In this document: one piece after another, positions 31,310 to 39,036 of the stretch | Layout of the letters: every line of letters starts with the position of its first letter | Numbering within the stretch: the stretch's first letter is position 1 | NCBI GenBank assembly: GCA_035546035.1 | Contig: DASZXC010000008.1 | Span: forward strand, 252,265 to 316,264 | Length of the DNA: 64,000 bases | Reading direction: 5' to 3' | DNA from: Minisyncoccota bacterium | Lineage (GTDB): Bacteria; Patescibacteriota; Minisyncoccia; Phycocordibacterales; UBA6065 | Notes under the pieces: model-generated | Database searches by the model: none | What the model was told of the DNA's origin: nothing | What the model saw: the letters and a program-made list of their open reading frames with translations, nothing else | Made by a program: the position numbers and the translations under genes

Positions 31310-32832
31310 ATGGCCACCGACGTAGTACTGCGGTTCGACGAAGTGTCGTTCGAATACGGGCACAATAAGCCGATCCTCGACGAGGTGAGCTTTTCGGTGC
31401 GCCGCGGCTCGAAGATCACCATCATGGGCCAGAACGGCGCGGGCAAGTCGACGATATTCGGCATGATATTGGCGGCAGCGGGGCAGAATGCGGGCCAGGG
31501 TCAGACTACGCCGAAAATTACGAGTGGCAACATCCACATCACCCGCGGCCTTTCGATCGCCATCGCGCGGCAGGTCATTCCGCGACCGGAATTGGCGCTT
31601 TCCGTCAGGGACTTTTTCCAAAAAGCCCTCATGGACACGAATGGCGGCAAAAAGTGTACGATATCGACCCGCGCATGGACGAAGCGCTCGATGCGGTGAA
31701 CTTTCCATTGCCTGCGACGGGAAAGGACCGCGTTGTCAGCTCGTTCTCGGGCGGGCAGCAGGCGCGATTTTTGCTAGCTTCGGCCTTGGTCCAGAATCCG
31801 GATATCCTGTTGCTCGACGAGCCGACGAACAATCTGGACAAAGCGGGTATCGAGCACCTGACCGCATTCCTCAAAGCGTATCCGAAGACCGTCATCGTCA
31901 TTTCGCACGAGGCGGATTTCCTCAATTCATTCACGGACGGCGTCTTGTACCTGGATGTGCATACCAAGAAAGTCGAGCAGTATCAGGGCGACTATTATGA
32001 CGTGCTCAAAGACATAACTGCGCGCGTCGATCGCGAAAATCGCGCCAATGCGTTGCTCCAGAAAGAGATCCAGGCCAAGAAAGACCAGGCCAATGCATTC
32101 GCCATGAAGGGCGGCGGGCTTCGCTTGGTCGCCAAGCGCATGCGCGAGAAAGCCGAAGAGCTCGAAGAAGACATCGTCGAGGTGCGCAAGGAAGACAAGA
32201 CCATCAAGCCGTTCACCATTCCTGCGCAGCCTGAATTCACGGGCGTGATCATGGAGATCAAGGGATATAAGGTATTCAAGAACCATAAGCCGGTGAAAAG
32301 GACATGCGCGGTGAAATTGAAGCGCCGCCAGCACCTGCTTTTGAAGGGTCCGAACGGCATAGGGAAGTCGACGCTACTCGAAGCTTTGGCGACGGGCAAG
32401 AATTCAGATGGCAGCGCGAACGAAGGCGCGACGATCGCATCGGGCGCGCGCGTCGGATACTATCGCCAGGATTTTTCGACCCTGAATTTCGAAGATACGG
32501 TGCACGAATCGCTGCTGTCGGCGTCGGCGACGCATATCGAACAGCATATCCGCGCGGTCGCGGCAGGATTTTTGATACATGCAGACATGATGGATACCAA
32601 GATCGGCGCATTGTCCGAAGGCCAGAAAGGCCTCGTGGCATTTGCGCGATTGGTCCTGCAGAAGCCCAGCCTCCTCATTTTGGACGAGCCTACGAACCAT
32701 ATTAATTTCAGGCACATTCCTGTGATCGCCAAGGCGCTGGATGAATATGAAGGTGCGATGATATTGGTGAGCCATGTGCCGGAATTTGTGTCGCAAATTC
32801 GGATCGATGAGACGTTGGATTTGGAGGGGTAG
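31310..32832 (+). pseudogene. ABC-F family ATPase (two ABC domains) interrupted by a +1/-1 frame change in an A5 run (31649-31653); frameshifted gene, possible sequencing error
   Basis: ORF 31310-31699 (Walker A GQNGAGKST) and ORF 31654-32832 (signature SGGQQAR, second Walker A GPNGIGKST, LSEGQKG, ILDEPTNH) are contiguous in different frames; one extra A restores NGGKKVYDIDPR. Confidence 0.7.
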
Positions 32833-32998
32833 TCAGGTTGTCTCATTTTTTAATATAACGTATTATCCGTCTGTGAACTTATGGCTCCACACTGAGGAGA
32901 GGCCAAGAATAAACACTATTAAATTAATAGTGGCTAGGTTTGCTTCAGATAGAAATTTAAAATCCGTCTTTTCTGGCAATGAGAAAATCTGGCCAATA

Positions 32999-34264
32999 AT
33001 GAAAGACGGTTTGTTTACATTTAAATACAAGATTGAGGGTATTAAATGTGAAAATGTTGAAAATATTTTTATAACCATTATTAGCGGTTCTTCAAGTTTT
33101 ACAGATTATCTGGTCTTTTATTCAGAAAACCCGCCGCTTGTAACTGATTCACCTCTTTATCTCATTGAAGAGACTAAGACTGGTGATAGTGAGAGCCGTA
33201 ACACGGCAGCGTATCAACGTTCTTCAAAATTTGTCTATGCCAGCTTCTTTTATCCCAAGGTTCCTAAAATCATGTTGTACAGCCTAAGGGTTGCGCAGAG
33301 AAAGGAATCGACCTCAACTTCTGTCTTCGGTACAAAACTTCTGGCGACGCTAGGTGTTGAGATTTTGGGCAGAATATTACAGAAAGACGCCTACTCAGCA
33401 TTTTCAAATATTGATGAATTGATCGAGCTTAAGAATGAAATGTCCCTTCCTCATTACGGGCTTGCTGTGCGGATAAATAAGGTAGGGGATGTAATTAAAA
33501 TATCTGCAAGGCTTGAAAAATCGGGCTATCTTTCTCATGATCCCAATATCGGTATGACGACAGTGATCAGTGCGTGTCTTAGAAAATTAGGTTGGAAGGG
33601 CCGCATCGTCATAACTGATCATGGCTTGGCGAGTCAAAAAAATGTAGGAGTAAGAAACAAATTTATTGCTATTGCCAATCAGCTCGGTGTTGAGCTCGAA
33701 AATCTAACCATACCCAGGGTTTCTCTTCATGGAGAATATTGGAAGGTTGAGGCAAACAAGGAGAAAATAGGAACAATTTTTACTAGTATTCTCTGCGAAG
33801 AATTTACGGACTCGGTTGCTATCTATGAAAATCATGGAGGCTGTGAAAGGGGCTATTTTATTTCTGAAAAAAATAAAGAAAATATAGAATATCTTGCTGT
33901 CCCAAAATTTTCAGATAGAGAAAAATACAAGGCGGGGGACAAAAGTTATATCATTTCTATTCCCGATCTAGTCCTCTACGATAGAAAAAGAGACATAATC
34001 ATTAATGCGGAAGGCAAGGTTTTTGCAAAGCGGGAGGAGGGTTATAAGGAAATAGGTGGGTTTGACTCGTTCGAAGATAAATTTATTAAAAAGTATTATC
34101 CGGGCTCAGAAATTTCAAGGACGCTCATACTTTCAGGCAGTAAAGACGAGGCGATTGATAATCCAATTACAGGCTTACTCTTAAATCAAGACGGATTAAT
34201 CGTCTTGGGGGAAAAGACACCTCTCTTGTTCAAGGAGGCTGTGGCGAATCTACTTTCTTTGTAG
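32999..34264 (+). CDS. Putative Type II restriction endonuclease of low-GC R-M island (two PD-(D/E)xK-like motifs)
   Basis: Low-GC coding; motifs TDSPLYLIEETK and IPDLVLYDRKRDIIINAEGK; convergent with and overlapping 3-prime end of methyltransferase gene; start at first ATG inside AT-rich region rather than the extended ORF start 32774. Confidence 0.4.
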   Translation: MKDGLFTFKYKIEGIKCENVENIFITIISGSSSFTDYLVFYSENPPLVTDSPLYLIEETKTGDSESRNTAAYQRSSKFVYASFFYPKVPKIMLYSLRVAQRKESTSTSVFGTKLLATLGVEILGRILQKDAYSAFSNIDELIELKNEMSLPHYGLAVRINKVGDVIKISARLEKSGYLSHDPNIGMTTVISACLRKLGWKGRIVITDHGLASQKNVGVRNKFIAIANQLGVELENLTIPRVSLHGEYWKVEANKEKIGTIFTSILCEEFTDSVAIYENHGGCERGYFISEKNKENIEYLAVPKFSDREKYKAGDKSYIISIPDLVLYDRKRDIIINAEGKVFAKREEGYKEIGGFDSFEDKFIKKYYPGSEISRTLILSGSKDEAIDNPITGLLLNQDGLIVLGEKTPLLFKEAVANLLSL

Positions 34265-35314
34265 TAAATATAGCTGTTCTTTTATATGCTTTTTTGTCGC
34301 AGACTCCCCTTTGTTATTGCTTTTGAAACGGAGATAGTTGATTTCCTTCATTTGAACGCTTCCAAACTCACTAAGTATTTTTAGAATCTCTGCCTGAGGC
34401 ATAATACCTTCAGAGTTGTAACTAAGAAGTAGGCATTTGTATTTTGCTTCACTCACTACAGTTTTTAATGCTCTGAGTGCACTATTTGGATTACAGAATT
34501 CTGACTTCTGTTCACTGTAATCTCGCATACCCGTAATCCCCTTTATCGCTGGATTGTCATATCTCGCAATTGTCTCCAGTAAATGATAATTTGGTGCATA
34601 CTGTCTTTCGTTATATGGAGGATCAAGGTAGAGAACATCAACCTTTAAGTCCGATATTAAATCCATGCTATTTTTGTTATAGACACGGTAATTTCTCTTC
34701 CCGGTGTAAAGCTTTATAGGTTTTATCTCGAATCTTTTCAAAGATCTCGGGTCGTATTTTTTTAAGAAAGCGGCATATACACCAGAAATATTTGCGTAAA
34801 AGGGTACACTTTCGATCAAACATGCCAGTAGCACAAAATATTCATTTTCTGAAATTATTTTTTCTTTTCTCCATAATTCAATCTGTTGGCGTTGGGCATC
34901 AATTTTCTCCGCGTTCTTTCCAGTTAAATATTTACGTATGAATTGCTCGTTCCGCGTTCCTTCTTCAGTGTAGTTTTCATATATAAACCCTTTGATACCG
35001 CCCAAATTATTAAGATAGAACAAGACCTGTTCTAGGGAATTTGAGAATAGAGCCTCTGATGCGGTTGTTCCGATCCTGTTTAAAAGCCTCGCAAATCTAA
35101 CCTCCTCATTATTTTCTATATAAGCTTTCTGTAATACGAAAGAGAAGTACATTAGATCCGATGAAAGGACAGAGTAACCCTTTTCCTTAAAGAATCTACC
35201 TACGTTTGATGTACCGGAAAAAAAGTCACAAAAGGTGCCGTCTTGGAATCCTAAATCAACGACGGTTGAGTGTATTTTCTCCAGGAGCTTTTCTTTGTTT
35301 CCGATGAATCTCAT
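34250..35314 (-). CDS. N6-adenine DNA methyltransferase (Dam/D12-class, DPPY motif)
   Basis: N-terminal MRFIGNKEKLL, FxGxG region and catalytic VLYLDPPYNE; start overlaps stop of upstream methyltransferase (TAATG). Confidence 0.8.
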   Translation of the reverse strand: MRFIGNKEKLLEKIHSTVVDLGFQDGTFCDFFSGTSNVGRFFKEKGYSVLSSDLMYFSFVLQKAYIENNEEVRFARLLNRIGTTASEALFSNSLEQVLFYLNNLGGIKGFIYENYTEEGTRNEQFIRKYLTGKNAEKIDAQRQQIELWRKEKIISENEYFVLLACLIESVPFYANISGVYAAFLKKYDPRSLKRFEIKPIKLYTGKRNYRVYNKNSMDLISDLKVDVLYLDPPYNERQYAPNYHLLETIARYDNPAIKGITGMRDYSEQKSEFCNPNSALRALKTVVSEAKYKCLLLSYNSEGIMPQAEILKILSEFGSVQMKEINYLRFKSNNKGESATKKHIKEQLYLLQRK

Positions 35315-36423
35315 TAGTAGTTGGTGATTAATACCTCAGACACTTTTCCTCTTTTGGTTGTATTTGAGTTGAGAGAACGACTAGATTGTACCGTATAAAT
35401 GTTGAAATCTTTATAGAGATCTCTTATGAACTTACAATCCGAATTCGAAAGCATTACATAAGCGCCTTTTTTATGTAATTCAGTGACGGTTTTTCTGAGT
35501 CTTATTTGATCTTCCTCGTAAAACCTTTCTTTGGTATACCTCGTAAAGTCTGAAGTCTTCGAGATCGGGTAGTAGGGAGGATCAAAAAAAACGAGGTCCT
35601 TTTTTGCTACATTTTTCGTTGCTTCCTCAAAATCAGAACATTCCAAAGAAGTCTTCTTGAGGGTTTTTGAAGCTTTTAGAATTGTCTCTGCGTCGCATAT
35701 AACCTTATCTAGTGAACTACCAATAGGGACATTAAATTGCCCTTTTCCATTTACTCTGTAAATACCATTAAAACAGGTTTGGTTTAAATAAATTGCCCGG
35801 GCGGCTATTTCATAGTTTCTGAAATGGCTAAAAAGATTGTAATTTCTATCCAAATTTCTTATGTGCTCGTAGAGTTTTTCGGAGTGTCTTTCTTTTAGTT
35901 TTTTCAGGGTATCAATTACTAGTTCAGGAAAATCACGGACAGCTTTATAGGTTTCAAGTAATTCTCGGTTATTGTCATTGAGAAATGATTTTTCTGGATT
36001 AAGCTCAAAGAATATCGCGCCCCCTCCAAGGAAGGGCTCAAAATAGCGATTATATTTTTTTGGGAAGTAATTTTTGTATTGTGCAACCATGCCTCTCTTA
36101 CCTCCAACCCACTGTAAGAAAGGTTTAGGACGATTTTTTTCGTGATTTTCTGCCTCTCTCTGTGAATTGTTGGTTAACGGAAATTTCTCGAGTTCCTTTT
36201 TTAAGATGGATTCTTTAAAAGAGATTAAATTCGATGGGTCACATTGTAGATAGTTACAAAGGGTATCGATGGTCGTCAGATCTATTCTTGTTGTTTTCTT
36301 GTTAGCAATTGCGTGTCCTTGCTGGTAACTAAGACCAGTATCTTTACATAATTTATAAAGAGTTTTCCCCTCCCTCTCTAAAATTTTCTTTAGGTTTATT
36401 TCTATACTCATTATGTTCTTCAT
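35314..36423 (-). CDS. HTH(XRE)-fused N6-adenine DNA methyltransferase (Dam-like, DPPY)
   Basis: N-terminal HTH (LYKLCKDTGLSYQQGHAIANKK), Dam motif I FLQWVGGKRGM / FEPFLGGGAIFFEL, catalytic VFFDPPYYP. Confidence 0.8.
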   Translation of the reverse strand: MKNIMSIEINLKKILEREGKTLYKLCKDTGLSYQQGHAIANKKTTRIDLTTIDTLCNYLQCDPSNLISFKESILKKELEKFPLTNNSQREAENHEKNRPKPFLQWVGGKRGMVAQYKNYFPKKYNRYFEPFLGGGAIFFELNPEKSFLNDNNRELLETYKAVRDFPELVIDTLKKLKERHSEKLYEHIRNLDRNYNLFSHFRNYEIAARAIYLNQTCFNGIYRVNGKGQFNVPIGSSLDKVICDAETILKASKTLKKTSLECSDFEEATKNVAKKDLVFFDPPYYPISKTSDFTRYTKERFYEEDQIRLRKTVTELHKKGAYVMLSNSDCKFIRDLYKDFNIYTVQSSRSLNSNTTKRGKVSEVLITNY

Positions 36424-36445
36424 TATATCAATAATGATTGATATA
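36424..36445 (-). promoter_or_regulatory. Palindromic operator abutting start codon of HTH-methyltransferase gene (C-box-like)
   Basis: TATATCAA-taatga-TTGATATA; a third TTGATAT copy at 36463-36469. Confidence 0.5.
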
Positions 36446-36532
36446 ATGAACCAGAGTGCCTGTTGATATCCTTGTCTTCTTCTTAAGCACTCTTTATTTT
36501 CCAGAACTCAGATCTCATATATAATCTTCTCT

Positions 36533-37225
36533 ATGCTCAAACGCACCTGGTTCCCTGGCCTCGTCGCCCTTATAATCGTCTTCTGTGTCTACTGGTTCGG
36601 AATACGCGATAGTGGCCCGTCTACGACCCTCGATCCTTACAACCAAAACCCTGCCGCGCAGAATCCAGGTATCTCCAACAGCCAAATCCAAACTCCGACC
36701 CAGCAAGAGACTCCTTCTACAAGCGATATAAAAACCATCATGGATAACATCACGACCGCGACCCTTCACACGAATAAAGGCGACATCACGATCCAGTTCA
36801 ACCCGGAGACGCCGATCACCGCGGCTAATTTCGTGAAGCTCGCCAAGGCCGGCTTCTATAACGGCACGAAATTCCACCGCGTCATCAAGGGCTTCATGGA
36901 CCAGGGCGGCGATCCTTTTTCCAAGGACGATTCGCTCATGGCTCGATGGGGAACGGGCGGTCCCGGCTATCAGTTCGAGGACGAGATCGGTCCTGATAAC
37001 AAGAACGATGTCGGCACCATCGCCATGGCCAATGCCGGTCCTAATACCAATGGCAGCCAGTTCTTCCTGAATGCGGCGGCGAATAATTTCCTCGACGACA
37101 AGCACACCGTATTCGGCAAGGTGACCAAGGGCCTCGACATCGTTATGGCCATCAACAATGTGCAGACCGATGAAAACGACCGACCTGTGTCGCCGGTCGT
37201 GATTGAGAGCGTCGATTTGAAATAA
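36533..37225 (+). CDS. ppiB: Peptidyl-prolyl cis-trans isomerase, cyclophilin type (membrane-anchored/secreted)
   Basis: N-terminal TM, cyclophilin motifs FHRVIKGFMDQGGDP, GTIAMANAGPNTNGSQFF, HTVFGKV. Confidence 0.9.
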   Translation: MLKRTWFPGLVALIIVFCVYWFGIRDSGPSTTLDPYNQNPAAQNPGISNSQIQTPTQQETPSTSDIKTIMDNITTATLHTNKGDITIQFNPETPITAANFVKLAKAGFYNGTKFHRVIKGFMDQGGDPFSKDDSLMARWGTGGPGYQFEDEIGPDNKNDVGTIAMANAGPNTNGSQFFLNAAANNFLDDKHTVFGKVTKGLDIVMAINNVQTDENDRPVSPVVIESVDLK

Positions 37226-37255
37226 GGCGGCGCATTTACTGATAACGCTGAAATA

Positions 37256-37522
37256 ATGGCCGCATATTATCTCTATATGGTCTCCTGCGCCGACGGCACG
37301 CTCTATACCGGCATCACGACCGATCTGGATCGAAGGATGGCCGAGCACAATGCGGGCGGCAAAGCGGGCGCGAAGTACACGCATGCCCGCCTGCCGGTCC
37401 AATTGGCGTATTCAAAGAAATATAAAGACCGCTCGTCCGCATCCATCGCCGAAGCGGCTCTGAAGAAGCTTTCCCGCGAGGAAAAGATGGAGATGATAGC
37501 GGTGGAGGCTTTGATAGGGTAG
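37256..37522 (+). CDS. GIY-YIG nuclease-family protein (UPF0213-like)
   Basis: YYLYMVSCADGTLYTGITTDLDRRMAEHN GIY-YIG core. Confidence 0.75.
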   Translation: MAAYYLYMVSCADGTLYTGITTDLDRRMAEHNAGGKAGAKYTHARLPVQLAYSKKYKDRSSASIAEAALKKLSREEKMEMIAVEALIG

Positions 37523-38469: not shown

Positions 38470-39036
38470 ATGATCGAAACCTATAAGAAAAAGATCATAG
38501 CCTTCTACGAACGGCATAAGCGCATGCCGGGGTATAAGGAATTGATGGATATCACGGGTTTCAAATCCAAGAATGCGGTCTACAAGATGATCAACAAGCT
38601 CGTCGAGCTCGGCGTTATTACGAAGGACGGCGAGGGCAGGATCGCCCTTGTGCGATCGGGGAGCGAGATACCCATGCTCGGTCTTGTCGAAGCCGGTATC
38701 CCGACGGTGGCGGAAGAATCCGATCTCGATGTCCTGAATCTCAACACCTATCTCGTTGAGGACAGGGAGAGTTCGTACCTGCTCGAGGTCAAGGGCGACT
38801 CTATGATAGAAGAGGGTATAAGGGAAGGTGACCTCGTGGTTGCGGAGAAGCGCGGCGATGCGAAGGAAGGCGATATCGTCATCGCCGAAGTGGATGGAGG
38901 CTGGACGATGAAATACTACCGAAAGAAGGGCAGCCAGATCTATCTAGAGCCTGCCAACAAGAAATACAAGCCGATCTATCCCGAATACGATCTCAAGATC
39001 GCGGCTATCGTGAGGGGAGTGATACGCAAATACTAG
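38470..39036 (+). CDS. lexA: LexA repressor (S24 peptidase)
   Basis: N-terminal winged HTH, cleavage-site region VEAGIP, catalytic Ser in VKGDSM and Lys in AIVRGVIRKY context; TATAAT 6 nt upstream of ATG. Confidence 0.85.
   Translation: MIETYKKKIIAFYERHKRMPGYKELMDITGFKSKNAVYKMINKLVELGVITKDGEGRIALVRSGSEIPMLGLVEAGIPTVAEESDLDVLNLNTYLVEDRESSYLLEVKGDSMIEEGIREGDLVVAEKRGDAKEGDIVIAEVDGGWTMKYYRKKGSQIYLEPANKKYKPIYPEYDLKIAAIVRGVIRKY

What the first reader, a model, noticed from the sequence alone, without database searches (positions are those of the whole stretch)
32833..36532. Low-GC 3.7-kb island inserted between the ABC-F gene and ppiB carrying a Type II R-M system (nuclease plus two Dam-class m6A methyltransferases, one HTH-fused)
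Base composition drops sharply right after the ABC-F stop codon and recovers at ppiB, which indicates horizontal acquisition. No integrase, transposase or flanking repeats were seen.

The two methyltransferase genes are translationally coupled (TAATG) and both carry DPPY. The first has an N-terminal XRE-type HTH, suggesting autoregulation.

The convergent 421-aa ORF is compositionally part of the island and carries two separate PD-(D/E)xK-like motifs: TDSPLYLIEETK and IPDLVLYDRKRDIIINAEGK. Two methyltransferases alongside a roughly 420-aa nuclease with duplicated catalytic motifs would be consistent either with a Type IIS-like system that modifies the two strands separately or with a DpnII/MboI-like GATC system.
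Basis: partly seen in the sequence, partly recalled or inferred. Interest (0 to 1): 0.6.

Follow-up and report, generated by a model that had tools for sequence, protein, structure and literature searches.

The report
BtsCI-like Type IIS restriction-modification island
A 3.7-kb stretch of foreign, low-GC DNA in a Paceibacterota (candidate-phyla-radiation) genome carries a three-gene restriction-modification system of the BtsCI kind, which probably targets GGATG; it is an ordinary defence module with a swapped, repressor-fused methyltransferase.

Summary
Positions 32833-36532 are the only low-GC stretch in the window (GC 0.37 against 0.55-0.57; GC3 0.34-0.38 against 0.71-0.74). An independent assembly reproduces both junctions exactly.

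The island holds three genes:
- A nuclease whose true length is 463 aa (GTG start at 32873), not 421 aa.
- A 354-aa D12-class m6A methyltransferase.
- A 365-aa HTH-fused Dam/DpnM-like methyltransferase, translationally coupled to the 354-aa gene (TAATG).

The nuclease has no Pfam, NCBIfam or PDB match. It is 46% identical over its full length to NEIFL0001_1034 of Neisseria flavescens SK114. The BtsCI paper names that protein as a BtsCI (GGATG 2/0) homologue. The nuclease carries both BtsCI catalytic motifs at the same spacing.

It is therefore a monomeric, two-active-site Type IIS enzyme, and not DpnII/MboI-like or AlwI-like.

The 354-aa methyltransferase is the M.FokI N-domain (GGATG-strand) type. 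The bottom-strand methyltransferase has been replaced by a DpnM-like enzyme. That enzyme has lost both residues that read the G of GATC and keeps the ATC readers, which fits CATC(C).

A conserved operator, TATATCAA-N6-TTGATATA, sits on its promoter.

GGATG specificity is inferred, not shown. Interest is modest.

The parts
32833..36532 (.). Low-GC island lying between the ABC-F stop codon and the ppiB start codon
   Evidence: GC is 0.369 against 0.55-0.57 in the flanks, and GC3 is 0.34-0.375 against 0.71-0.74. It is the only stretch below GC 0.45 in 64 kb. Both junctions are reproduced exactly in the independent contig L001.
32873..34264 (+). Restriction endonuclease of 463 aa with a GTG start; BtsCI-family monomeric Type IIS enzyme with two active sites
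   Evidence: Homologues are 461-467 aa and start MK-NLWLHTEERP. It is 46% identical, E=6e-146, to N. flavescens SK114 NEIFL0001_1034, which is a BtsCI homologue according to PMC2831314. It matches PADLOC REase_II model PDLC03445 at 5e-63. The AlphaFold2 model has pLDDT 90.3.
33104..33229 (+). N-terminal (bottom-strand, 'Cb') catalytic site: D78 ... D92-X6-E99-x-x-K102 ... Q115-R116 ... K119
   Evidence: The D-to-E and E-to-R offsets are the same as for BtsCI D121/E128/R145. D78, E99, K102, N110, Q115, R116 and K119 are conserved in 68-70 of 71 diverse family members, whereas D92 is variable.
33962..34018 (+). C-terminal (top-strand, 'Ct') catalytic site: P364-D365-X14-E380-G-K382
   Evidence: The D-to-E offset of 15 residues is the same as for BtsCI D388/E403/E405. 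P364, D365 and E380 are conserved in 68-71 of 71 members. Position 382 is K in 44 and E in 26, which is the EXK/EXE dichotomy described for this family.
32838..32866 (+). Promoter-like site for the nuclease gene (TTGTCT-17-TATTAT), ending 6 nt before the GTG
   Evidence: Consensus scan only; the number of such sites in the region does not exceed chance. A similar -10-like hexamer sits just before the start codon in L002 and L088. This evidence is weak.
34250..35314 (-). 354-aa D12-class m6A methyltransferase of the M.FokI/M.BtsCI N-terminal-domain type; predicted to methylate the GGATG strand
   Evidence: Pfam PF02086 at 4.5e-35. It matches positions 1-339 of the 646-position fused-methyltransferase PADLOC model PDLC03287 at 3e-94. 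It is 52% identical to the N. flavescens 354-aa methyltransferase and 56% to the P. disiens 353-aa one. The DPPY motif is present. Its 3' end overlaps the nuclease gene by 15 bp, convergently.
35314..36411 (-). 365-aa HTH-fused Dam/DpnM-like m6A methyltransferase; predicted bottom-strand (CATCC) methyltransferase and autorepressor
   Evidence: TIGR00571 dam at 4.6e-78 and DpnM (2dpm) at 1.2e-72. It is only 24% identical to the FokI-C-type methyltransferase of the N. flavescens system. At the EcoDam contact positions, K9 is Q and R137/Y138 are S/S, while R124 and P134 are kept. An identical 365-aa protein is in NCBI from a Ca. Paceibacterota MAG. It is coupled to the 354-aa gene by TAATG.
36214..36396 (-). 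Cro/C1-type HTH domain (HTH_26) at the N-terminus of the Dam-like methyltransferase
   Evidence: Pfam PF13443, E=1.5e-13.
36424..36445 (.). Operator-like palindrome TATATCAA-N6-TTGATATA (perfect 14+14 palindrome at 36419-36450), containing a TGnTATAAT-like -10 element 12 nt upstream of the methyltransferase ATG
   Evidence: Found as a repeat. The 8-N6-8 core is conserved, with a variable spacer, directly upstream of the HTH-methyltransferase ATG in five loci, four of them independent. It is unique in the window: 1 match against 0.09 expected. It is absent from sister cassettes that carry LexA instead of HTH_26.

Best explanation
The island is a horizontally acquired, self-contained Type IIS restriction-modification cassette of the BtsCI/BseGI kind. 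It sits in a Candidatus Paceibacterota (Patescibacteria) chromosome.

The nuclease. The 463-aa nuclease is predicted to act as a monomer. It binds an asymmetric site, most probably 5'-GGATG-3'. It cuts the two strands with two different active sites in one chain. The N-terminal D/E...E...K...QR site would nick the bottom strand. The C-terminal PD-X14-EGK site would nick the top strand. As in BtsCI, this would give a cut a few bases from the site (2/0).

Host protection. Two separate m6A methyltransferases protect the host, one per strand. The 354-aa enzyme is orthologous to the GGATG-specific N-terminal domain of M.FokI/M.BtsCI. The 365-aa enzyme is a DpnM-type Dam methyltransferase that has replaced the usual M.FokI-C-type enzyme. 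It has lost the two residues that read the first G of GATC and keeps the readers of A-T-C. It is therefore predicted to methylate CATC(C).

Regulation. The N-terminal HTH of the 365-aa enzyme is predicted to bind the palindrome TATATCAA-N6-TTGATATA. That palindrome overlaps the -10 element of the methyltransferase operon, so the enzyme would repress its own transcription and that of the coupled 354-aa gene.

What is shown and what is inferred. Shown here: the composition break, the gene structures, homology to the BtsCI-related family, conservation of both catalytic motifs, the non-orthologous swap of the second methyltransferase, the contact-residue substitutions, and conservation of the operator. 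Inferred: the recognition sequence, the cut position, the monomeric sequential nicking, which strand each methyltransferase modifies, and the repression.
For: Foreign origin:
- GC and GC3 break sharply at the gene boundaries.
- None of 80 related Patescibacteria genomes has these genes next to ABC-F.
- The same three-gene cassette occurs elsewhere beside serine recombinases, an integrase, OLD and CBASS genes. Related trios occur on small Psychrobacter and Bartonella plasmids.

Nuclease family:
- It is 46% identical over the full length (E=6e-146) to N. flavescens SK114 NEIFL0001_1034, 472 aa.
- PMC2831314 reports that a 472-aa N. flavescens SK114 protein is 33% identical to BtsCI, has both catalytic sites, and is flanked by two methyltransferases. 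The genomic context matches.
- Motif offsets are identical to BtsCI. D92/E99/R116 correspond to D121/E128/R145, and D365/E380/K382 correspond to D388/E403/E405.
- Both motifs are conserved in 71 diverse members, with K or E at position 382.
- A PADLOC Type II REase model matches the window, Neisseria and Prevotella proteins equally well.
- A Prevotella disiens homologue (48% identical) sits in a methyltransferase-methyltransferase-nuclease operon of 298/353/466 aa. This matches in gene order and closely in size (311/355/466 aa) the P. intermedia Pin17FI system, whose GGATG/CATCC m6A methylation was seen by SMRT sequencing (PMC5608340).

Methyltransferases:
- The 354-aa enzyme matches the N-half of a 646-position fused-methyltransferase model at 3e-94. 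It is 52-56% identical to the Neisseria and Prevotella orthologues.
- The M.FokI N-domain recognises GGATG and the C-domain CATCC (PMC3985630).
- In EcoDam, K9 and Y138 read the first base pair, R124 the fourth, and L122 and P134 the third (PMC4417163).
- The window enzyme and all 120 of its closest homologues have Q at the K9 position and S-S at R137-Y138, with R124 and P134 kept.
- The bona fide CATCC-type methyltransferases of the Neisseria and Prevotella systems show the same pattern: R and P kept, K9 and Y138 lost.

Operator.

Site frequency: GGATG is mildly under-represented in the host DNA (112 observed against 149 expected, z=-3.0, rank 25 of 512). GATC (1.07) and GGATC (0.91) are not.
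Against: - No direct comparison with BtsCI, BseGI or BstF5I sequences, or with REBASE, was possible. The link to BtsCI goes through the published 33% identity of the Neisseria protein.
- The window nuclease is only 43-50% identical to the clade for which GGATG is predicted or observed. Specificity can change at that distance.
- The second methyltransferase is not orthologous to that clade's. This could equally signal a different bottom-strand sequence.
- GGATG avoidance is weak (5th percentile of 512 words) and is not expected to be strong for a recent acquisition.
- The nuclease has lost the ATG-AAA start seen in its homologues. It has only a GTG with no Shine-Dalgarno sequence, so its expression is uncertain.
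- Foldseek against the PDB gave no significant match. The PD-(D/E)xK fold of the two domains is therefore inferred from motifs and from the BtsCI/BsmI literature, not from a fold comparison.
Confidence: 0.7

Rival explanations
1. The architecture is the same (a BtsCI-fold Type IIS nuclease plus two strand-specific m6A methyltransferases), but the recognition sequence differs from GGATG. Candidates are GGATC, the 4-bp GATG/CATC, or another xATC-containing asymmetric site. The swap of the second methyltransferase would mark the change of specificity.
For: - The second methyltransferase is non-orthologous to that of the GGATG clade (23-26% identity), while the nuclease and the 354-aa methyltransferase are only 43-56% identical to that clade's.
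- Related fused or separate D12-type methyltransferase pairs serve other sites. Examples are GATG/CATC in MhoVII and AlwI-family systems (PMC12898733).
- The strongest PDB match of the second methyltransferase is the GATC enzyme DpnM.
Against: - Loss of both G1-reading residues (K9, Y138), with the readers of base pairs 3 and 4 retained, argues against a GATC-containing site such as GGATC. It fits CATC, the core of CATCC.
- The 354-aa methyltransferase is clearly of the GGATG-strand type.
- GGATG is under-represented in the host DNA and GGATC is not.
Confidence: 0.18
2. The cassette is a decaying R-M system. The two methyltransferases are active, but the nuclease is not made or is inactive, so the island now acts only as a pair of (auto-regulated) orphan methyltransferases.
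For: - The canonical ATG-AAA start of homologues is replaced here. Only a GTG without a recognisable ribosome-binding site remains.
- Gene callers chose the truncated 421-aa ORF.
Against: - The 463-codon frame is intact.
- Every near-invariant family residue is present: E8, E9, D78, E99, K102, N110, Q115, R116, K119, D365, E380, K382 and others.
- A -10-like hexamer 6 nt upstream of the GTG is compatible with a leaderless transcript, as in sister loci.
Confidence: 0.08
3. It is a DpnII/MboI-like GATC system, made of a Dam-type methyltransferase, a second methyltransferase and a GATC-cutting nuclease.
For: The HTH-methyltransferase is strongly similar to DpnM (E=1.2e-72) and passes the NCBIfam dam model.
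Against: - The nuclease has no similarity to DpnII/MboI-type enzymes (no Pfam hit even at E up to 10). It belongs to the BtsCI-related family.
- The second methyltransferase is D12-class and not DpnA-type N6_N4_Mtase.
- The G1-reading residues are lost in the Dam-like enzyme.
- GATC is not avoided (ratio 1.07).
Confidence: 0.02
4. The compositional break is an assembly chimera that joins DNA of two organisms.
For: The source is a metagenome-assembled genome, and the GC change is abrupt.
Against: - An independently assembled Logan contig spans both junctions with 0 mismatches over 4706 nt.
- The breaks coincide exactly with gene ends.
- The flanking host genes ABC-F and ppiB lie in the same order in related genomes.
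Confidence: 0.02

Closest known systems
BtsCI / BseGI / BstF5I R-M systems (GGATG 2/0), and the putative isoschizomers Nfl_ORF1032 (N. flavescens SK114) and Cup_ORF1489 (C. upsaliensis) named in PMC2831314
   Same: - The nuclease is about 460-470 aa with two different catalytic sites in one chain, an N-terminal D-X6-E-...-QR site and a C-terminal PD-X14-E-x-K/E site, at identical spacing.
- It is 46% identical to the Neisseria protein.
- Host protection is by two D12-class m6A activities, one per strand.
- The 354-aa methyltransferase is orthologous (52%).
   Different: - The bottom-strand methyltransferase is not the M.FokI/M.BtsCI C-domain type. It is a DpnM-like enzyme with an N-terminal HTH.
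- The nuclease gene is convergent to the methyltransferase genes, not co-directional.
- BtsCI itself has EXE in the C-terminal site where this protein has EXK.
- BtsCI has a single fused methyltransferase.
- Specificity and cut site are untested here.
Pin17FI / Pin25611FI of Prevotella intermedia (GGATG/CATCC, m6A seen by SMRT; PMC5608340)
   Same: - It is a three-gene system of 466-aa nuclease, 355-aa methyltransferase and about 300-aa methyltransferase.
- A Prevotella disiens system of the same gene order and sizes has a nuclease 48% identical and a 353-aa methyltransferase 56% identical to the window's.
   Different: - The P. intermedia sequences themselves could not be fetched. Orthology to the P. 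disiens system is inferred from genus, sizes and gene order.
- The Prevotella second methyltransferase is FokI-C-type (24% identical to the window's).
BsmI / Mva1269I / BsrI group of monomeric Type IIS enzymes with two catalytic sites
   Same: The mechanism class is the same: one polypeptide with an N-terminal ...E...QR site for the bottom strand and a C-terminal PD...EXK site for the top strand. Nicking is sequential, and single-site mutants are nickases (PMC2831314, PMC11889245).
   Different: - Neither sequence nor Foldseek similarity to solved PDB structures (which should include the BsmI crystal structures published in 2025) was detectable here.
- Those proteins are much larger (about 670 aa) and recognise other sites.
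FokI R-M system
   Same: - The predicted recognition sequence is the same.
- The 354-aa methyltransferase corresponds to the GGATG-specific N-terminal half of M.FokI-type fused methyltransferases.
   Different: - The nuclease is unrelated to FokI (no PDB sequence hit).
- No dimerising cleavage domain is present, and the predicted cut is close to the site.
DpnM / EcoDam (GATC Dam methyltransferases)
   Same: - The catalytic domain of the 365-aa methyltransferase is a clear family member (2dpm at 1.2e-72, dam TIGR00571 at 4.6e-78).
- Y119/N120/R124/P134-equivalent residues are retained.
   Different: - At the EcoDam first-base-pair contact positions, K9 is Q and Y138 is S (R137 is also S). This holds throughout its subfamily of 120 of 120 closest homologues.
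- It carries an N-terminal HTH.
- It is embedded in a Type IIS cassette.
R-M systems autoregulated by an HTH fused to the methyltransferase (SsoII/Ecl18kI-type; cited from my own knowledge, not tested here) and C-protein controlled systems
   Same: An N-terminal HTH sits on the methyltransferase, and a palindromic operator overlaps its own promoter.
   Different: - Those examples are C5-cytosine methyltransferases.
- Here the HTH is on a D12 m6A enzyme, and no operator copy is seen at the nuclease gene.
- Binding is untested.

Membership tests
BtsCI-type monomeric two-site Type IIS restriction endonucleases | Full-length sequence homology to a recognised family member | tested here: met
   The window nuclease is 46% identical, E=6e-146, over 469 columns to N. 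flavescens SK114 NEIFL0001_1034 (472 aa). That protein is named a BtsCI homologue (33% identity) in PMC2831314. The same PADLOC REase_II model hits both.
BtsCI-type monomeric two-site Type IIS restriction endonucleases | Direct similarity to BtsCI or BseGI protein sequences | not testable with these tools
BtsCI-type monomeric two-site Type IIS restriction endonucleases | N-terminal bottom-strand site (S/K)(D/E)-X6-E-X14/15-QR | tested here: met
   The window has T-D92-X6-E99-X15-Q115-R116, with the same D-to-E-to-R offsets as BtsCI D121/E128/R145. E99, Q115 and R116 are conserved in 69-70 of 71 members.
BtsCI-type monomeric two-site Type IIS restriction endonucleases | C-terminal top-strand site PD-Xn-E-X-(K/E) | tested here: met
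   The window has P364-D365-X14-E380-G-K382, with the same offsets as BtsCI D388/E403/E405. D365 is conserved in 71 of 71 and E380 in 70 of 71. Position 382 is K in 44 and E in 26.
BtsCI-type monomeric two-site Type IIS restriction endonucleases | Recognition of GGATG and cleavage at 2/0 by a monomer; single-site mutants nick | not testable with these tools
   This needs enzyme assays or methylome data. The only indirect support is the mild GGATG under-representation.
BtsCI/FokI-type modification (two D12 m6A activities homologous to the two halves of M.FokI/M.BtsCI) | A methyltransferase homologous to the N-terminal (GGATG) half | tested here: met
   The 354-aa methyltransferase matches positions 1-339 of the 646-position model PDLC03287 at 3e-94. 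It is 52% identical to the N. flavescens 354-aa methyltransferase.
BtsCI/FokI-type modification (two D12 m6A activities homologous to the two halves of M.FokI/M.BtsCI) | A methyltransferase homologous to the C-terminal (CATCC) half | tested here: not met
   The window's second methyltransferase is only 23-25% identical to the 284-298-aa FokI-C-type methyltransferases of the Neisseria, Psychrobacter, Bartonella and Prevotella systems. It is DpnM-like instead.
DpnII/MboI GATC systems | A DpnII/MboI-type nuclease | tested here: not met
   The nuclease has no Pfam hit, even at E up to 10.
DpnII/MboI GATC systems | A GATC-specific Dam methyltransferase with intact base-contact residues | tested here: not met
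   The enzyme is homologous to DpnM. However, the K9 and Y138 equivalents (first-base-pair readers in EcoDam, PMC4417163) are Q and S.
DpnII/MboI GATC systems | A second methyltransferase of DpnA type (N6_N4_Mtase) | tested here: not met
   The second methyltransferase is MethyltransfD12.
AlwI-family Type IIS systems (GGATC and relatives) | A nuclease of the AlwI family (Pfam RE_AlwI; the accession is known to me, not checked here) | tested here: not met
   The nuclease has no Pfam family hit.
R-M systems autoregulated through a methyltransferase-fused HTH | An N-terminal HTH on the methyltransferase | tested here: met
   HTH_26, E=1.5e-13.
R-M systems autoregulated through a methyltransferase-fused HTH | A palindromic operator in the methyltransferase's own promoter region | tested here: met
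   TATATCAA-N6-TTGATATA is conserved 8-20 nt upstream of the ATG in five loci (four independent). It is unique in the window and absent where the HTH is replaced by LexA.
R-M systems autoregulated through a methyltransferase-fused HTH | Sequence-specific binding and repression | not testable with these tools
   This needs EMSA or reporter assays.

The most novel reading that the evidence does not exclude
The window's cassette represents an undescribed sub-lineage of BtsCI-like Type IIS systems. In it, the bottom-strand methyltransferase was replaced by a Dam/DpnM-type enzyme re-targeted from GATC to CATC(C) through loss of the two G1-reading residues. That enzyme carries a swappable N-terminal repressor module. 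Here the module is a Cro/C1 HTH with its own operator. In sister cassettes it is a complete LexA with an apparently intact self-cleavage site and Ser/Lys dyad, which would wire R-M expression to the SOS response. A weaker variant of the same reading is that the methyltransferase swap marks a new recognition specificity.
Probability: 0.35. Interest if true: 0.5.

Novelty: new variant of a known kind. Interest (0 to 1): 0.3.

Why it matters
As a defence system it is ordinary: one more Type IIS R-M cassette moving between genomes, here into a small candidate-phyla-radiation genome.

Three points give it some practical or conceptual value:
- The nuclease family has 365 clusters at 50% identity, and thousands of sequences, but no Pfam or NCBIfam model. 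It is annotated 'hypothetical' everywhere. Linking it to BtsCI lets these genes be annotated. It also offers many natural variants of a monomeric two-site enzyme, the kind that is readily converted into strand-specific nickases.
- The DpnM-like partner methyltransferase is a natural experiment in Dam specificity. The G1 readers are lost and the ATC readers kept. This could be tested directly and would inform methylome motif assignment.
- The regulator module on that methyltransferase is exchangeable (HTH or full LexA). If functional, this is an unusual way to couple modification to DNA-damage signalling.

Tried and rejected
- Sequence searches of the nuclease against the PDB found nothing significant. 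This held for the single sequence and for a 46-sequence profile. The only hit, to the UvrC endonuclease domain at E=0.35, was disregarded as chance.
- Foldseek of the confident AlphaFold2 model against the PDB gave no match at E<=0.001. There were only weak local hits to Mus81, Hef and T7 endonuclease I.
- Profile-profile comparison of the N-terminal, middle and C-terminal thirds found no internal duplication.
- The first attempt to obtain organism names for family representatives gave only unnamed metagenome proteins. Searching from the Psychrobacter plasmid homologue then reached the Neisseria and Prevotella proteins.
- The search for an empty insertion site failed. No related genome has the island. 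The nearest syntenic relatives have a PLD-like gene (and sometimes more) between ABC-F and ppiB. The closest relatives by ABC-F identity are not syntenic or their contigs end there.
- No flanking direct or inverted repeats of note were found. The 14-nt inverted pair at 32559/36645 lies inside the flanking coding regions and is taken as chance.
- Recognition-site avoidance is suggestive only.
- Literature searches for BstF5I methyltransferases and for LexA-methyltransferase fusions returned nothing useful.

Full report
**1. The observation**

The region 32833-36532 is a sharp compositional island. Its GC is 0.369, against 0.565 for the 20 kb to the left and 0.552 for the 20 kb to the right. GC3 of its three genes is 0.34-0.375, against 0.71-0.74 in the neighbouring ABC-F, ppiB and DEAD-box helicase genes. 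It is the only part of the 64-kb window with 1-kb GC below 0.45.

The break starts immediately after the ABC-F stop codon and ends at the ppiB start codon. A contig assembled independently by Logan from run SRR12170516 (L001) is identical to window 32613-37318 over all 4706 bases and crosses both junctions. A chimeric join is therefore unlikely.

There is no integrase or transposase ORF, no tRNA within 13 kb, and no meaningful flanking repeat.

**2. Gene structures and corrections**

The island holds three genes.

- *The nuclease.* The ORF on the plus strand runs in frame from 32774, but homologues are 461-467 aa and begin MK-NLWLHTEERPR. In the window the homologous position is the GTG at 32873, followed by NLWLHTEERPR. 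This gives a 463-aa protein ending at 34264. Those residues include E8 and E9, each present in 67 of 71 diverse family members.
- *The two methyltransferase genes.* They lie on the minus strand and are joined by TAATG. The 354-aa gene (34250-35314) overlaps the nuclease gene convergently by 15 bp.
- *The upstream methyltransferase.* It most probably starts at ATG 36411 (MSIEINL..., 365 aa). Its homologues start there, and so does an identical NCBI protein from a Candidatus Paceibacterota MAG.
- *Domains.* Both methyltransferases are Pfam MethyltransfD12 (4.5e-35 and 2.6e-57) with DPPY. The upstream one has an N-terminal HTH_26 (1.5e-13).

**3. The host**

The ABC-F protein is up to 86-87% identical to proteins from Candidatus Paceibacterota / Parcubacteria MAGs. 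The island's methyltransferase is recorded in NCBI from a Paceibacterota MAG contig of 380 kb.

None of 80 related genomes carries the three island genes beside ABC-F. In the nearest syntenic relatives, ABC-F and ppiB are 1.4-2.5 kb apart. A PLD-like gene lies between them, and in one genome further genes as well. That PLD-like gene is absent from the whole window. The spot is therefore variable, and a clean empty site was not found.

**4. What the nuclease is**

The protein has no Pfam or NCBIfam match and no PDB sequence match. It does match a PADLOC Type II REase model, PDLC03445, at 5e-63. It belongs to a sizeable family of 365 clusters at 50% identity.

The BtsCI paper (PMC2831314) describes the following:
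- BtsCI (GGATG 2/0) has an N-terminal SD-X6-E-X14-QR site (D121, E128, R145), whose mutation leaves top-strand nicking.
- It has a C-terminal PD-Xn-EXE site (D388, E403, E405), whose mutation leaves bottom-strand nicking.
- Two 33%-identical homologues are named, a 463-aa protein of Campylobacter upsaliensis and a 472-aa protein of Neisseria flavescens SK114. Both have EXK in place of EXE, and both are accompanied by two separate methyltransferases that match the two halves of M.BtsCI.

Searching from a plasmid homologue led to the 472-aa N. flavescens SK114 protein NEIFL0001_1034. In that genome it follows two D12 methyltransferases of 289 and 354 aa. The window nuclease is 46% identical to it over the full length (E=6e-146).

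The window protein has D92-X6-E99-X15-Q115-R116 and P364-D365-X14-E380-G-K382. The residue offsets are exactly those of the BtsCI catalytic residues.

Across 71 diverse family members the following are each conserved in at least 67: E8, E9, D78, E99, K102, N110, Q115, R116, K119, P364, D365 and E380. Position 382 is K in 44 and E in 26, reproducing the EXK/EXE dichotomy of the paper. D92 itself is variable, and D78 is the better-conserved acidic residue upstream.

The two sites are not a detectable duplication.

**5. The methyltransferases and the likely target**

The 354-aa enzyme:
- It matches the N-terminal half (positions 1-339) of a 646-position fused-methyltransferase PADLOC model at 3e-94.
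- It is 52% identical to the N. flavescens 354-aa methyltransferase and 56% to that of Prevotella disiens.
- By the paper's statement, this is the M.BtsCI/M.FokI N-domain type. The M.FokI N-domain recognises GGATG and the C-domain CATCC (PMC3985630).

The second methyltransferase is not orthologous:
- The window's HTH-fused enzyme is 23-26% identical to the 284-298-aa FokI-C-type methyltransferases of the Neisseria, Psychrobacter, Bartonella and Prevotella systems.
- It is a close relative of DpnM (1.2e-72).

The family thus splits into two cassette types:
- A co-directional methyltransferase-methyltransferase-nuclease type with a FokI-C-like methyltransferase (Neisseria, Prevotella, plasmids).
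- The window's type, with a regulator-fused DpnM-like methyltransferase and a convergent nuclease gene (window, L002, L085, L086/L087, L088).

The co-directional type has experimental support for GGATG. The P. intermedia systems Pin17FI and Pin25611FI (nuclease 466 aa, methyltransferases 355 and 311 aa, same gene order) were assigned GGATG/CATCC from SMRT methylomes (PMC5608340). The P. disiens system recovered here has the same gene order and closely matching sizes. Equating the two Prevotella systems is an inference.

For the window's type the target must be inferred:
- In EcoDam, K9 and Y138 recognise the first base pair of GATC, R124 the fourth, and L122 and P134 the third. First-pair recognition is the least conserved in the family (PMC4417163).
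- Aligned to EcoDam and DpnM as printed by the PDB search, the window enzyme has Q for K9 and S-S for R137-Y138. It keeps R124, P134, N120 and an aromatic residue at position 119.
- The same holds for the four sister loci and for all 120 closest homologues.
- The FokI-C-type (CATCC) methyltransferases show the same pattern: R124 and P134 kept, K9 and Y138 lost.
- The simplest reading is that the DpnM-like enzyme reads xATC and not GATC. It would then serve as the CATC(C)-strand methyltransferase, keeping the system's target at GGATG/CATCC.

Weak additional support comes from word frequencies in the 60 kb of host DNA. GGATG occurs 112 times against 149 expected (ratio 0.75, z=-3.0, rank 25 of 512). 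GGATC (0.91) and GATC (1.07) are not depleted.

A different target, such as the GATG/CATC recently shown for MhoVII or a GGATC-like site as in AlwI-type systems (PMC12898733), cannot be excluded. That is the main rival explanation.

**6. Regulation**

A perfect 14+14-nt palindrome (36419-36450) lies just upstream of the HTH-methyltransferase start.

- Its core, TATATCAA-N6-TTGATATA, is conserved at the same place in five loci (four independent). The spacer and surrounding sequence vary.
- It occurs once in the window, against 0.09 expected.
- The promoter-proximal arm reads TTGATATAAT, an extended -10-like element 12 nt from the ATG.
- Sister cassettes whose methyltransferase carries LexA instead of HTH_26 lack this palindrome and have other repeats. 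This ties the palindrome to the HTH module.

Autorepression of the methyltransferase operon is therefore a well-supported inference. No copy of the operator is found at the nuclease gene. How nuclease expression is delayed after entry into a new host is unknown.

**7. Mobility**

The same cassette sits beside serine recombinases, a tyrosine integrase, an OLD-family nuclease and CBASS genes in other metagenomic contigs. The co-directional variant is on small Psychrobacter and Bartonella plasmids, one of them mobilizable. In the window the cassette has no mobility gene of its own.

**8. Verdict**

The nuclease coordinates need correcting. The Type IIS alternative is preferred, and the DpnII/MboI alternative is not supported.

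The system is a BtsCI-related Type IIS R-M cassette with a non-orthologous, HTH-fused second methyltransferase. That makes it a variant of a known kind.

Family membership of the nuclease is well supported, at about 0.85-0.9. The GGATG specificity and the 2/0 cut are inferences, at about 0.55-0.6. Interest is modest.

Noticed in passing
L092:4052-5554 and L093:5001-6509 (sister cassettes); proteins P0490-P0557: In many sister cassettes the Dam-like methyltransferase (56-62% identical to the window's) is fused to a complete LexA and not to HTH_26. Pfam finds LexA_DNA_bind plus Peptidase_S24. The Ala-Gly cleavage site, the GDSM/GNSM serine and the TLKK lysine are all conserved. The gene order is the same: LexA-methyltransferase, 352-354-aa methyltransferase, convergent 460-462-aa nuclease. 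NCBI names some of these proteins 'transcriptional repressor LexA'. I found no paper describing such fusions. They suggest SOS-coupled control of an R-M system.
   Followed up: partly
window 31310-32832 (shift near 31640-31660): The ABC-F gene just upstream of the island is split into two frames (31310-31699 and 31654-32832). In relatives it is a single 483-aa ORF. The break looks like a 1-nt deletion after 'ggcaaaaag'. There is also an insertion (…AAAGQNAGQGQTT…) in the N-terminal part. This is either a real frameshift or pseudogene, or an assembly indel.
   Followed up: partly
L005, L006, L009 (between ABC-F and ppiB); whole window: Related Patescibacteria have a PLD-like (PLDc_2) 345-352-aa gene between ABC-F and ppiB, and L005 has further genes there. 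No PLD homologue exists anywhere in the 64-kb window. The interval is a variable spot, and the island may have replaced that gene.
   Followed up: partly
window, host part (1-32832 and 36533-64000): CTCAG/CTGAG is the most under-represented 5-mer in the host DNA (20 observed against 65 expected, ratio 0.31). CTAG is the most depleted 4-mer (0.40). The CTCAG depletion might reflect another restriction system elsewhere in this genome.
   Followed up: no
L083 (Psychrobacter sp. P11G5 plasmid pPspP11G5c) 2527-3930 and 3986-5401: This 13.6-kb mobilizable plasmid carries two tandem paralogues of the nuclease (467 and 471 aa, 78% identical) after the two methyltransferase genes.
   Followed up: no
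window 32861-32866, 36440-36445 (minus strand) and 36520-36525: -10-like hexamers lie only 6-12 nt upstream of the start codons of the nuclease gene (TATTAT), the HTH-methyltransferase gene (TATAAT, inside the operator) and the host ppiB gene (TATAAT). This hints at leaderless or near-leaderless transcripts. It rests on consensus matching only.
   Followed up: no
window 38470-39036: A stand-alone host LexA gene (188 aa) lies 2 kb downstream of the island. It aligns with the LexA modules of the LexA-methyltransferase fusions at only 30-33% identity, so those modules are not recent copies of this host gene.
   Followed up: partly
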